Shown in pieces: positions 58,278 through 60,607 of a stretch of DNA of 64,000 nucleotides (its first letter is position 1; every line of letters starts with the position of its first letter). This stretch comes from Escherichia coli (lineage in GTDB: Bacteria; Pseudomonadota; Gammaproteobacteria; Enterobacterales; Enterobacteriaceae): NCBI RefSeq assembly GCF_013122565.1, contig NZ_CP053258.1. One strand, written 5' to 3'. The position numbers and the translations under genes are program-made. Below the pieces are notes generated by a model. The model made no database searches. It had not been told where the DNA came from and was given only the letters and a program-made list of their open reading frames with translations.

Positions 58278-58371
58278 ACGCAAAACTGCCTGATGTGCCA
58301 CGCTTATCAGGCCTACAAGGTTTCTGCAATATATTGAATTAGCACGATTTTGTAGGCCGGATAAGGCGTTT
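58278..58371. repeat. BIME: intact PU plus left half of a second PU that is split by the IS
   Basis: TGCCTGATGTGCCACGCTTATCAGGCCTAC ... CTGCAATATATTGAATT ... GTAGGCCGGATAAGGCGTTT. Confidence 0.8.
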
Positions 58372-59277
<906 letters not shown>

Positions 59278-59778
59278 TTTCCAGGAGATGCTCCTGCATG
59301 GCTTTCAGATATGCATTTTCTGCGCGAAGATAACGCAGCTCATTCTTCATCTCTTCCGGCGTCATGTTTGCCTCGTTTTCATGGGTATCATCAGAACGGG
59401 TCATGCTTTTCTCCTTCCTGCGCCTGATAAAGGCCTCATTACCAGATTTGCGGTAGCCTTTTATCCAGTTTTTAACCATGTTGTGGCTGGGAATGTTAAA
59501 CCGGGCAGCTACCCGGGGTAGAGACTCAGAATGCCCGAGAGCATAAAGAACCACGCAAAGTTTATCTTCAGGAGAATAGCTACGCTTGTGTCTGCAATCC
59601 AGTGCCTGAGGACCGTGAAGAAGAAAAAGATTAATCCAGTGTGAGAGGCTGGTGTGAGAAAGTTGAAAGAGTTTTGCCGTAGAAAGGATGCCTGCATGAC
59701 CGGCCAGGTAATGATTTACAGCGGCAAGTTTTACTTCAAATGAATGTTTCATAAACTGCACCTTCAGATGTCAGATTA

Positions 59779-59803
59779 TGTCCAACATTTGGGGTGCAGT
59801 TCA
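59779..59803. repeat. IS terminal inverted repeat (orfA-proximal end)
   Basis: reverse complement TGAACTGCACCCCAAATGTTGGACA. Confidence 0.8.
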
Positions 59804-59822
59804 GTTTACGCCGCATCCGGCA
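59804..59822. repeat. right half of REP palindromic unit split by the IS (includes GTTT direct repeat)
   Basis: GTTTACGCCGCATCCGGCA; with 58350..58371 reconstitutes GTAGGCCGGATAAGGCGTTTACGCCGCATCCGGCA. Confidence 0.8.
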
Positions 59823-59872
59823 TAAACAAAGCGCACTTTGTCAACAGTTGTTGCTGCCGACAAATGCAGTAT

Positions 59873-60607
59873 TTAATTTTCGTGAGGAAAAGCCGTAAGG
59901 TCATCAATCATTTTTTGAAGTATTGGTGAGTCCTGACCGTCACCCCATTGAAGAATTTTTGCGGTAAGCTGATGACGTTCTAGCGCATTGAGTCCCATCT
60001 TTTTAAGTTTAAGGGAGATTTTACCCATGACTTTAATCTGACCGAATGCAGTTGCGTAGGTAATCATATTGCTCTGGATAGTGCTCATTTCATCGACTAG
60101 TAATTGCGCACGAACATCCTCTTCAAGAATACTGTCCATAGCGATGTATTTCATACCCCACATAGTTTCAATTAACATTTGAGGGAAATCAGCACAGTCC
60201 AGATCCGGCTCTTTACGGAGGCTATTTTCAAGAACGTTTAGAGCATCAGCACCTTCATCGCTGCCAAAAGGAGATTCTTCATCCCAGCAACACATATAAA
60301 GTGGATCAGTAAAATGGCACTGGAAGTTTGGGTGTGACGTTTTAACATGTAACCCAATTTCTTCATCATCAAAATAGTAGCGATCCATGAAGTTAAACTT
60401 TGGATCTTCTTGATATCCTTTTTTCATTTTTGCGGCAATCAATTTACTGGCTTCTTTCAGACACTGTTCTTCATTATCGAATTCTTTTGTATGGAATTTA
60501 CCAATACTACCTACCTTGCCATAGTTGACAGCTAAACTATCCCCTTCGTAATCTATCCACCAAAATTTATTCGATTTTTCATCGTGATAAATAAAGCATT
60601 TTTTCAT
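59873..60607 (-). CDS. yfeS: WGR-like domain protein YfeS
   Basis: 244 aa, MKKCFIYHDEKSNKFWWIDYEGDSLAVNYGKVGSIGKF. Confidence 0.88.
   Translation of the reverse strand: MKKCFIYHDEKSNKFWWIDYEGDSLAVNYGKVGSIGKFHTKEFDNEEQCLKEASKLIAAKMKKGYQEDPKFNFMDRYYFDDEEIGLHVKTSHPNFQCHFTDPLYMCCWDEESPFGSDEGADALNVLENSLRKEPDLDCADFPQMLIETMWGMKYIAMDSILEEDVRAQLLVDEMSTIQSNMITYATAFGQIKVMGKISLKLKKMGLNALERHQLTAKILQWGDGQDSPILQKMIDDLTAFPHEN

What the first reader, a model, noticed from the sequence alone, without database searches (positions are those of the whole stretch)
59273..59279. A_AAA_AAG slippery heptamer at the orfA/orfB overlap of the IS
On the minus strand the orfA frame reads CTG GAA AAA AAG CGC. orfB lies in the -1 frame relative to orfA, as expected for OrfAB transposase production by programmed -1 ribosomal frameshifting in IS3-family elements. 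Both reading frames and the HSDQG DDE motif are intact, so the copy is probably transposition-competent.
Basis: partly seen in the sequence, partly recalled or inferred. Interest (0 to 1): 0.3.

Follow-up and report, generated by a model that had tools for sequence, protein, structure and literature searches.

The report
Known IS1397 transposase frameshift site
The flagged A_AAA_AAG is the already-catalogued ribosomal frameshift site of the E. coli insertion sequence IS1397, sitting in an intact copy inserted in a REP palindrome between yfeS and cysM; it is a correct but ordinary call.

Summary
On the minus strand, 59279-59273 reads A_AAA_AAG in the orfA frame (CTG GAA AAA AAG CGC), and orfB lies in the -1 frame and stays open to its stop.

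The element is IS1397 (IS3 family, IS150 group). It is 1432 bp (58372-59803) with 25-nt inverted repeats and a 4-bp AAAC target duplication, inserted in the centre of a REP palindrome between yfeS and cysM.

The fused 449-aa product matches the NCBIfam IS3 transposase model end to end (2e-116) and has an intact DD(35)E triad. RefSeq annotates other copies of this element as "programmed frameshift".

Sharma et al. 2014 (NAR) already list IS1397 as a "safely inferred" -1 frameshift case, with an upstream SD-like sequence and a 38-nt hairpin after a 3-nt spacer. I recovered the same two elements independently: AGGAG 11 nt upstream and a hairpin at 59269-59232.

The heptamer is invariant in six distant clade members. 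Two of them have a -1-frame stop 3 nt upstream, which pins the site.

Minor additions:
- The slip site lies one zipper heptad downstream of its position in IS150-like relatives.
- The hairpin has no covariation support.
- This copy carries T92M at an invariant HTH residue, but that allele occurs at five or more loci.

Novelty: already known. Interest: low.

The parts
58372..59803 (-). Complete IS1397 copy (IS3 family, IS150 group), 1432 bp
   Evidence: 99.7% identical over 1432/1432 nt to a RefSeq-annotated 'IS3-like element IS1397 family transposase' locus. Full-length copies occur in 1707 of 5426 complete E. coli genomes. It is the only copy in the window.
59779..59803 (-). Left inverted repeat (IRL), begins 5'-TGAACTGCACCCCAAA
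   Evidence: Inverted-repeat pair I1: 25 nt, 84% complementary. Identical in seven other copies.
58372..58396 (-). Right inverted repeat (IRR), ends ...TTTGGGGTTCAGTTCA-3'
   Evidence: Inverted-repeat pair I1.
59804..59807 (-). Target-site duplication AAAC, upstream copy
   Evidence: Flanks read ...GGCGTAAAC|IS|AAACGCC.... The empty site in strain JNE151685 reads GCGGCGTAAACGCCTTATCC with a single AAAC.
58368..58371 (-). Target-site duplication AAAC, downstream copy
59808..59829 (.). Half of the split REP/PU palindrome (GCCGGATGCGGCGT...)
   Evidence: Inverted repeat I3 pairs it with 58348-58369 across the IS. The uninterrupted palindrome is present at the empty site.
58348..58369 (.). Other half of the split REP/PU palindrome (...ACGCCTTATCCGGCCTACAAAA)
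59231..59752 (-). orfA (173 aa plus stop): two HTH motifs and a leucine zipper (L-x6-L heptads LRAENAY/LKAMQEH/LLEKKRQ)
   Evidence: ORF list and translation. Pfam HTH_28 and HTH_Tnp_1. 98% identical to a 2287-member E. coli protein cluster. The zipper is read from the heptad spacing of leucines, not tested.
59291..59295 (-). SD-like AGGAG; its GGAG core ends 11 nt before the heptamer
   Evidence: Read directly from the sequence. Predicted duplex with the 16S 3' end is -6.6 kcal/mol. GGAG at the same 11-nt spacing occurs in 5 of 6 distinct clade relatives and 32 of 47 IS150-like relatives. Sharma et al. score the SD as present in 100% of 59 IS1397 sequences. A stimulatory role is inferred.
59273..59279 (-). 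Slippery heptamer A_AAA_AAG (orfA codons GAA AAA AAG); proposed site of the -1 shift
   Evidence: Listed as cluster A_AAA_AAG_5 'IS1397 [true]' in Sharma et al. 2014 Table S4.
59232..59269 (-). Predicted 38-nt stem-loop 3 nt after the heptamer: CAGG-AG-CUGGAG...loop...C-UCCAG-AG-CCUG
   Evidence: It is the minimum-free-energy structure in 60-, 73- and 121-nt contexts. It folds at -13.1 kcal/mol on its own; z-scores are -1.9 to -2.5. Size, spacer and first stem are identical to Sharma et al. Table S8 (38 nt, spacer 3, first stem 4 bp). There is no covariation support.
58404..59279 (-). orfB reading frame (-1 relative to orfA) from the slip site to its TAA stop; encodes HTH_21 plus the rve integrase core
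   Evidence: Uninterrupted 291-codon translation. Pfam HTH_21, rve and rve_2.
59231..59339 (-). Frameshift window: the stretch where both the orfA frame and the -1 frame are open
   Evidence: A -1-frame TGA at 59342-59340 and the orfA TGA at 59233-59231.
58869..58871 (-). Catalytic D295 (WVTDITEF)
   Evidence: the codon was checked.
58689..58691 (-). Catalytic D355 (HSDQG)
   Evidence: 59 residues after D295.
58581..58583 (-). Catalytic E391 (NAVMENFF), 35 residues after D355, with K at E+7
59252..59258 (-). Second A-run, G_AAA_AAA (orfA codons GAG AAA AAA): a near-cognate alternative slip site inside the hairpin
   Evidence: Read directly from the sequence. It is not an X_XXY_YYZ motif in the orfA frame. 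It is conserved as GAGAAAAA(A/G) in most of the clade.
59300..59308 (-). Position homologous to the slip site of IS150-like relatives (ENAYL|KK); here it reads CTG AAA GCC (L K A) and is not slippery
   Evidence: all 47 distinct relatives place the heptamer right after ENAYL, whereas IS1397 places it 7 codons later.
59477..59479 (-). Codon 92 of orfA, ATG (Met), where most IS1397 copies and all relatives have Thr

Best explanation
The heptamer is the programmed -1 ribosomal frameshift site of IS1397.

Most ribosomes that translate orfA terminate at the TGA at 59233-59231. They produce the 173-aa OrfA, a protein with two HTH motifs and a leucine zipper.

A minority shift frame while the single E. 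coli tRNA-Lys occupies the P site (AAA) and the A site (AAG). Both tRNAs re-pair one base back on AAA AAA, and decoding then continues with GCG CCA GGA. This produces the 449-aa OrfAB (...LLEKK-APGAGEKTKVIQSL...), which joins the OrfA DNA-binding and zipper part to the HTH_21 and DD(35)E catalytic part. OrfAB is the transposase.

Two flanking elements probably raise the shift frequency. One is an AGGAG 11 nt upstream that can pair with the anti-SD of the translating ribosome, as in dnaX and IS911. The other is a 38-nt hairpin that starts 3 nt downstream.

Shown here: the sequence, the reading frames, the conservation, the homology of the fused product, and the predicted signals. Inferred: that shifting happens at all, how efficient it is, and that the SD-like sequence and the hairpin stimulate it.
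For: Frames and open -1 frame.

Fused product: it matches NF033516 over 1-369/369 in a single stretch across the junction, E = 2e-116. It has Pfam HTH_28, HTH_21, rve and rve_2 and DD(35)E plus K at E+7.

Annotation: RefSeq/PGAP marks the same-site copy and nine other copies as 'programmed frameshift' joins of the same 1349-nt span.

Conservation:
- The heptamer plus the following CGCC are invariant in 6 distinct clade members with 53-59% OrfA identity.
- In L084 and L086 a TGA closes the -1 frame 3 nt before the heptamer and orfA stops 34-37 nt after it. The shift must therefore occur in a ~40-nt window that begins at the heptamer.
- Between the two A-runs, the -1-frame peptide APG(A/S/T)GEK is better conserved than the 0-frame peptide R(Q/R)xxEKK, as expected if the -1 frame is read from the first site.
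- 54 of 62 more distant -1-frame relatives have an in-frame A_AAA_AAG, and 4 have A_AAA_AAA.

Stimulators:
- AGGAG at -11.
- The hairpin.
- In IS150-like relatives the positionally overlapping 10-bp helix is 96% paired with 3 compensatory pairs, and 0 of 500 shuffles reach its covariation score.

Literature:
- A_AAA_AAG is among the most efficient -1 motifs in E. coli (PMC4066793).
- The IS3-family OrfAB fusion is the transposase (PMC5009743).
- IS1397 is listed as a 'safely inferred' PRF case with SD 1.00, hairpin 1.00, 38 nt, spacer 3 (PMC4066793 Tables S4 and S8).
Against: - Frameshifting in IS1397 is described as 'safely inferred', not demonstrated, in the only source I could read. The primary IS1397 papers were not available.
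- The hairpin lacks comparative support. RNAalifold gives a positive covariation term across the clade. Its outer stem consists of invariant, dual-coding positions. The inner stem is only about 3/5 paired in relatives. One IS1397 copy (L094) has an uncompensated A-to-U change in the outer stem.
- Z-scores are modest, -1.9 for the 60-nt and 73-nt downstream stretches.
- The 3-nt spacer is shorter than the usual 5-9 nt, so the outer stem would be partly unwound when the ribosome is on the heptamer.
- The GGAG is confounded with coding (caG GAG = Q-E).
- No Rfam frameshift-element family matches.
Confidence: 0.9

Rival explanations
1. The fusion is made at the transcription step. RNA polymerase slips on the run of seven A's (59280-59274) and adds one A. 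The resulting mRNA encodes GAA AAA AAA GCG..., which gives exactly the same OrfAB protein without any ribosomal slip.
For: The run is A7 in IS1397 and is invariant across the clade. One extra A gives the identical E-K-K-A-P-G junction (deduced). Transcriptional slippage is used by some IS elements according to the review PMC5009743 (title and scope seen). My recollection that efficient slippage needs runs of about 9 or more is from memory and was not checked.
Against: - More distant relatives keep A6G rather than longer A-runs; the base before the run is T in most.
- The terminal G, which matters for tRNA-Lys slippage but not for polymerase slippage, is conserved in 54 of 58 relatives that have a heptamer.
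- The flanking SD-like sequence and hairpin are features of ribosomal signals.
- A_AAA_AAG is a proven, efficient ribosomal motif in E. coli.
Confidence: 0.04
2. The ribosome shifts mainly at the second A-run, G_AAA_AAA (59258-59252), not at the flagged heptamer. This would give ...LLEKKRQELEKK-TKVIQ..., a product of the same length.
For: The second run lies inside the two-frame window. It is conserved as GAGAAAAA(A/G) in most of the clade. In L082 and L087 it reads G_AAA_AAG, which contains the shift-prone A_AAG tetramer (tetramers are discussed).
Against: - It is not an X_XXY_YYZ motif, because the P-site tRNA would re-pair on GAA.
- It sits in the 5' arm and loop of the hairpin, with no structure at a stimulatory distance downstream.
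- L086 has GAGACAAAA there, which breaks the run, yet keeps the first heptamer.
- The -1-frame peptide between the two sites is the better conserved one.
Confidence: 0.04
3. No recoding takes place. The heptamer is just two Lys codons in a charged zipper tail, and OrfB is made separately (internal start or coupling) and acts alone or together with OrfA.
For: Gene callers start orfB of the clade relatives at a GTG that overlaps the orfA TAG stop. AAAAAAG is common in this window (26 copies).
Against: - In IS1397 that GTG is replaced by ATC. The first in-frame start listed for orfB is a GTG at 59126, 50 codons into the conserved region.
- Conservation of the -1 frame extends upstream to the heptamer itself (KKAPG...).
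- The single-stretch full-length match to the IS3 OrfAB model spans the junction.
- Heptamer conservation at the nucleotide level across 53-59%-identical proteins is far beyond what two Lys codons would need.
- Four Pseudomonas asuensis relatives have hard-wired the same fusion at the homologous point.
Confidence: 0.02

Closest known systems
IS1397 of Escherichia coli (IS3 family, IS150 group)
   Same: The identity is 99.7% over the full 1432 bp to RefSeq-annotated IS1397 copies. It has the same inverted repeats and the same REP/PU-centre insertion with a 3-4 bp duplication (REP targeting of IS1397 is stated in PMC1525189). The frameshift cassette is the one tabulated by Sharma et al. 2014: A_AAA_AAG, SD, and a 38-nt hairpin with a 3-nt spacer.
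   Different: Only allelic differences. There are three private substitutions (I23L, G243S, one synonymous), the minority T92M allele, and a minority variant of the 76-nt frameshift region that matches exactly in 38 of 1672 records.
IS150-type frameshift cassette (IS150 and the Bacillales, Pseudomonas and Burkholderia relatives found here)
   Same: Shared features are the A_AAA_AAG in the leucine-zipper tail of OrfA, GGAG 11 nt upstream in most members, and a downstream stem whose 3' arm lies in the conserved V-I-x-x-L-(R/K) codons at the start of OrfB. Sharma et al. list IS150 with a 48-nt hairpin, 6-nt spacer and 10-bp first stem.
   Different: - In IS1397 and its clade the heptamer is 7 codons (one heptad) further downstream (ENAYLKAMQEHLLE|KK against ENAYL|KK).
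- The linker to the conserved OrfB start is 10 residues shorter.
- The spacer is 3 nt rather than 6-7 nt.
- The stem is a 4+5-bp interrupted helix with a 16-nt loop, not a continuous 10-bp helix with a ~46-nt loop.
IS911 and E. coli dnaX tripartite -1 frameshift signals
   Same: The arrangement is the same: an SD-like sequence upstream, then A_AAA_AAG, then a downstream stem-loop (described in PMC4066793 and PMC5009743). In Table S4, IS1397 and IS911 are the only two IS clusters scored Y/Y for SD and structure.
   Different: There is no sequence homology of the signals. IS911 uses a three-way-junction structure and belongs to the IS3 group. The signals of IS911 and dnaX were tested experimentally; those of IS1397 were not, as far as I could establish.

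Membership tests
IS3 family insertion sequence | Two consecutive, partly overlapping ORFs with orfB in the -1 frame relative to orfA | tested here: met
   orfA codons start at 59281 and 59278; orfB codons start at 59279. The overlap window is 59339-59231.
IS3 family insertion sequence | The fused OrfAB matches the curated IS3-family transposase model above its cut-off | tested here: met
   NF033516: 389 bits against a 160-bit cut-off, profile positions 1-369 of 369, one stretch.
IS3 family insertion sequence | DD(35)E catalytic triad with K/R seven residues after E | tested here: met
   D295, D355 and E391, spacings 59 and 35, with K398 at E+7. Pfam rve E = 1.9e-21.
IS3 family insertion sequence | Imperfect terminal inverted repeats ending 5'-TG...CA-3' | tested here: met
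   The ends read TGAACTGCACCCC... and ...GGGGTTCAGTTCA; 25 nt, 84% complementary.
IS3 family insertion sequence | Short (3-4 bp) target-site duplication | tested here: met
   AAAC is present on both sides and only once at the empty site of strain JNE151685.
IS3 family insertion sequence | OrfAB is actually produced by -1 frameshifting and catalyses transposition | not testable with these tools
   This needs a reporter assay, protein analysis and a transposition assay. Sharma et al. call it 'safely inferred' for IS1397.
IS1397 (the specific element) | Near-identity over the full length to reference or annotated IS1397 | tested here: met
   96.9-99.7% identity over 1432/1432 nt to loci annotated 'IS3-like element IS1397 family transposase'.
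IS1397 (the specific element) | Insertion into the central part of REP/palindromic units | tested here: met
   The split palindrome GCCGGATGCGGCGTAAAC|IS|AAACGCCTTATCCGGC. Four other copies examined are also inside REPs. Target specificity is stated in PMC1525189.
IS150 group frameshift cassette | Heptamer immediately after the conserved ENAYL motif, followed after 6-7 nt by a continuous ~10-bp covarying helix | tested here: not met
   The heptamer is 7 codons downstream of ENAYL, and the hairpin has a different geometry with no covariation. Sharma et al. assign IS1397 to grpIS150 on the basis of the whole element. The cassette is therefore a variant within the group, not grounds for exclusion.
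dnaX/IS911-type SD-stimulated -1 PRF | SD-like sequence about 10-14 nt upstream of the slippery heptamer | tested here: met
   AGGAG at 59295-59291 with its GGAG core 11 nt before the heptamer; predicted duplex with the anti-SD is -6.6 kcal/mol. Sharma et al. score SD 1.00. The 10-14 nt optimum is recalled from Larsen et al. 1994, which is cited but not read. Stimulation itself was not tested.
Curated Rfam frameshift elements (e.g. IS1222_FSE, ALIL pseudoknot, DnaX FSE) | A covariance-model match in the frameshift region | tested here: not met
   There are no such hits at E <= 10 in 58300-59900.

The most novel reading that the evidence does not exclude
The IS1397 clade may show a recoding site that has moved. 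Compared with 47 IS150-like relatives, which all shift right after ENAYL, the IS1397 clade (E. coli, Erwinia and metagenomic members) has lost the slippery sequence there (CTG AAA GCC). It shifts exactly one leucine-zipper heptad (21 nt) further on. It keeps a GGAG at the same 11-nt distance and uses a new, compact hairpin in place of the long-range covarying helix. This would be a small natural example of how a frameshift cassette can be relocated and rebuilt without losing the two-protein output. The alternative is that the pattern is only an alignment effect of a 7-codon insertion.
Probability: 0.5. Interest if true: 0.2.

Novelty: already known. Interest (0 to 1): 0.08.

Why it matters
It matters little beyond correct annotation. 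The window holds an apparently intact IS1397, a REP-targeting IS3-family element whose transposase needs a -1 frameshift. A gene caller that ignores recoding will split the transposase into two ORFs or label it a pseudogene. The frameshift cassette (heptamer, SD-like sequence, hairpin) is already tabulated in the literature, so nothing here changes current understanding. The comparative details are footnotes of interest mainly to people who study recoding signals: the heptad-shifted slip site, the lack of covariation in the hairpin, and the Met-92 allele.

Tried and rejected
- I tried to read the three primary IS1397/ISKpn1 papers (PMC94167, PMC95333, PMC169884). None is held. Whether frameshifting or a fused orfAB construct was tested in them remains unchecked.
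- The Rfam scan of the IS at E <= 10 found no frameshift-element family.
- RNAalifold on the 8-sequence IS1397-clade alignment did not recover a supported consensus hairpin; the covariation term was +1.09. Folding each member separately gave z-scores of only -0.1 to -0.9 in five of six relatives. I therefore do not claim that the hairpin is conserved across the clade.
- I looked by eye for a pseudoknot between the hairpin loop (GAAAAAACGAAAGUCA) and the next ~120 nt. At most 4-5 complementary bases turned up (GUCA/UGAC), so I dropped it. No pseudoknot-capable program was run.
- An alternative hairpin places the heptamer in its loop (59290-59281 paired with 59270-59261, 9 of 10 bp, I24). An upstream hairpin CAGGAG/CUCCUG (-8.3 kcal/mol) is also possible. 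I set both aside as stimulators: these segments lie inside or behind the ribosome when it sits on the heptamer, and the complementarity is not kept in the clade.
- The plasmid search for closer relatives found almost nothing beyond E. coli copies.
- I considered that T92M might mark a dead copy. It does not, because the allele occurs at five or more different REP loci.

Full report
**1. The observation**

These codons belong to a 173-aa orfA (ATG at 59752, stop TGA at 59233-59231) whose tail reads ...LRAENAYLKAMQEHLLEKKRQELEKKRKSSRA.

The orfB frame has a codon starting at 59279, one base 5' of the orfA codon at 59278, so it is the -1 frame. It opens after a TGA at 59342-59340 and runs without a stop to the TAA at 58406-58404.

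The bare heptamer is common in this window: 26 copies against 13.2 expected. It counts as a signal because of its register and conservation, not because it is present.

**2. What the element is**

- **Identity.** The 1432 bp from 58372 to 59803 are 96.9-99.7% identical to loci that RefSeq annotates as "IS3-like element IS1397 family transposase". Full-length copies occur in 1707 of 5426 complete E. coli genomes, almost all on chromosomes. It is the only copy in the window.
- **Ends.** The ends are 25-nt imperfect inverted repeats, TGAACTG...CAGTTCA.
- **Insertion site.** The flanks are the two halves of a REP/PU palindrome with AAAC on each side. I rebuilt the empty site by joining the flanks and removing one AAAC. 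It exists uninterrupted next to yfeS in 1372 genomes, and in strain JNE151685 it reads GCCGGATGCGGCGTAAACGCCTTATCCGGC. This confirms the boundaries and a 4-bp duplication.
- **Neighbours.** The neighbours are yfeS and cysM, and strain T-HYM1 has an IS1397 at the same site. Insertion into REPs is the known habit of IS1397 (PMC1525189). Four other copies I examined are also inside REPs, with 3-4 bp duplications.

**3. The fused product**

Joining the orfA frame through AAG to the -1 frame gives 449 aa (...LLEKK-APGAGEKTKVIQSL...). Its coding span equals the two-piece "programmed frameshift" CDS of RefSeq, 1349 nt.

- It matches NCBIfam NF033516 (IS3 family transposase) over profile positions 1-369 of 369, in a single stretch that crosses the junction, at 2e-116.
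- It carries Pfam HTH_28, HTH_21, rve and rve_2.
- D295, D355 (in HSDQG) and E391 give DD(35)E, with K at E+7.

**4. Is the shift really at this heptamer?**

- **Distant relatives.** The genome scan returned 80 loci at about 40-57% amino-acid identity to the query. In 62 non-IS1397 loci orfB is in the -1 frame. Of these, 54 have an in-frame A_AAA_AAG in the overlap, 4 have A_AAA_AAA, and 4 have neither.
- **Closer clade.** A search with OrfA found a closer clade (53-59% OrfA identity; Erwinia and metagenomic contigs) that shares the IS1397-type tail ENAYLKAMQEHLLEKK. Their DNA shows GGAAAAAAAGCGCC invariant in all six distinct members.
- **Flanking stops.** In two of these (L084, L086) a TGA closes the -1 frame 3 nt before the heptamer and orfA stops 34-37 nt after it. 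The shift must therefore occur in a ~40-nt window that starts at the heptamer.
- **The second A-run.** A second A-run, G_AAA_AAA (59258-59252), lies in that window. It is not in X_XXY_YYZ register, and it is interrupted in L086. The -1-frame peptide between the two runs, APG(A/S/T)GEK, is better conserved than the 0-frame peptide. This favours the first site.

**5. Stimulatory elements**

- **Upstream.** AGGAG sits at 59295-59291, with its GGAG core ending 11 nt before the heptamer. The predicted duplex with the 16S 3' end is -6.6 kcal/mol. The same GGAG at the same distance occurs in 5 of 6 distinct clade relatives and 32 of 47 IS150-like relatives. It is confounded with a Glu codon, though.
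- **Downstream.** Three nucleotides after the heptamer, a 38-nt hairpin (59269-59232; CAGG-AG-CUGGAG...C-UCCAG-AG-CCUG) is the minimum-energy fold in every context tried. It folds at -13.1 kcal/mol alone, with z-scores of -1.9 to -2.5.
- **Comparative support for the hairpin is lacking.** RNAalifold finds no covariation across the clade. The outer stem consists of invariant dual-coding bases. Within IS1397 there is one wobble-preserving change and one disruptive change.
- **Positive control.** In the IS150-like relatives a 10-bp helix starts 6-7 nt after the heptamer. It is 96% paired with three compensatory pairs, and no shuffle or slid control approaches it. Its 3' arm overlaps the same OrfB codons as the IS1397 3' arm.
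- **Rfam.** No Rfam frameshift family matches.

**6. What is already known**

Sharma et al. 2014 (PMC4066793) list cluster A_AAA_AAG_5 as "Fam IS3/grpIS150/IS1397 [true]", with 59 sequences.

- A footnote says that -1 frameshifting there "can be safely inferred".
- Table S8 gives SD 1.00, hairpin 1.00, hairpin size 38 nt, spacer 3 nt and first stem 4 bp. That is the same SD and the same hairpin I derived independently.
- The same paper shows A_AAA_AAG to be among the most efficient -1 motifs in E. coli.
- The review PMC5009743 states that in the IS3 family the frameshift fusion is the transposase.

The finding is therefore a correct identification of a catalogued feature. I could not read the primary IS1397 papers.

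**7. Is this copy competent?**

Both ORFs, both inverted repeats, the heptamer and the duplication are intact.

- Against seven other copies it has three private substitutions: I23L and G243S, both at positions that vary among relatives, and one synonymous change.
- It also has Met at OrfA residue 92. Most IS1397 copies have Thr there, as do all six clade relatives and the more distant OrfAs. Residue 92 lies in the second HTH.
- The Met allele matches exactly in only 23 of 1723 records. However, it sits in REPs at yjjV-yjjW, yjcO-gltP, speB-loiP and rof-tilS as well as at yfeS-cysM, three times with the identical protein accession. The lineage has therefore moved, either on its own or with help in trans.

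"Probably competent" is reasonable but untested.

**8. Small additions**

In all 47 distinct IS150-like relatives the heptamer follows ENAYL directly. In IS1397 and its clade that position reads CTG AAA GCC, and the heptamer lies exactly 7 codons (one zipper heptad) downstream. The linker to the conserved start of OrfB is correspondingly shorter. This could be a relocated slip site or the effect of a 7-codon insertion; I could not decide which.

**9. Verdict**

- Observation: confirmed.
- Interpretation: supported.
- Mechanism: programmed -1 ribosomal frameshifting at A_AAA_AAG, probably helped by an upstream SD-like sequence and a downstream hairpin. Confidence is about 0.9, with the stimulators less certain.
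- Rivals: transcriptional slippage on the A7 run, a shift at the second A-run, or no recoding at all. Together these are worth about 0.1.
- Novelty: already known.
- Interest: low.

Noticed in passing
window 59300-59308 versus 59273-59279; loci L005-L081 and L082-L088: The slip site of IS1397 and its clade lies exactly one leucine-zipper heptad (7 codons) downstream of the position used by all 47 distinct IS150-like relatives (ENAYL|KK). The old position reads CTG AAA GCC and is no longer slippery. GGAG sits 11 nt upstream in both arrangements.
   Followed up: partly
window 59477-59479 (orfA codon 92): This copy has Met where most IS1397 copies and every relative examined have Thr, in the second HTH. 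The allele matches exactly in 23 of 1723 E. coli records but is found in REPs at five or more different loci.
   Followed up: yes
window 58309-58351 (-): Rfam ES036 (CssrF sRNA) matches above its gathering score (40.9 against 37.6 bits, E = 2e-06). The match lies in the REP/BIME sequence just outside the right end of the IS and looks REP-derived.
   Followed up: no
E. coli K-12 MG1655 NZ_CP010439.1 4344363-4344427 and many other genomes (H71-H84): A 65-bp fragment 96.9% identical to the right end of IS1397 (IS positions 1368-1432) is present in strains that have no full-length IS1397, including K-12. It may be a solo end remnant.
   Followed up: no
L002, L003, L004, L015 (Pseudomonas asuensis), L039 (P. 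oryzihabitans): In these relatives orfA and orfB form one continuous ORF with no frameshift. In the four P. asuensis loci the reading passes through the old slip position as the -1 product would (ENAYLK(K/Q/R)A(R/K)SLGS...), and the heptamer has decayed in three of them. This looks like a hard-wired OrfAB. The junction of L039 was not displayed.
   Followed up: partly
L048 (E. coli SCPM-O-B-8794, NZ_JAATUR010000049.1): This IS1397 copy has an internal deletion that removes roughly OrfAB residues 140-204, including the zipper tail and the frameshift window, and joins the two parts in one frame.
   Followed up: no
L084 positions ~541-543 and L086 ~1974-1976: Two clade members carry a TGA in the -1 frame only 3 nt upstream of the heptamer. 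This narrows the possible shift window to about 40 nt.
   Followed up: yes
L082-L088, at the orfA stop: In the clade relatives the orfA stop TAG overlaps a GTG (TAGTG), and gene callers start orfB there. That would allow separate OrfB synthesis by coupling. In IS1397 this GTG is ATC, and orfA runs 4 codons longer.
   Followed up: partly
whole window: AAAAAAG occurs 26 times on both strands against 13.2 expected from dinucleotide shuffles; 0 of 100 shuffles reach 26. The other 25 sites were not examined.
   Followed up: no
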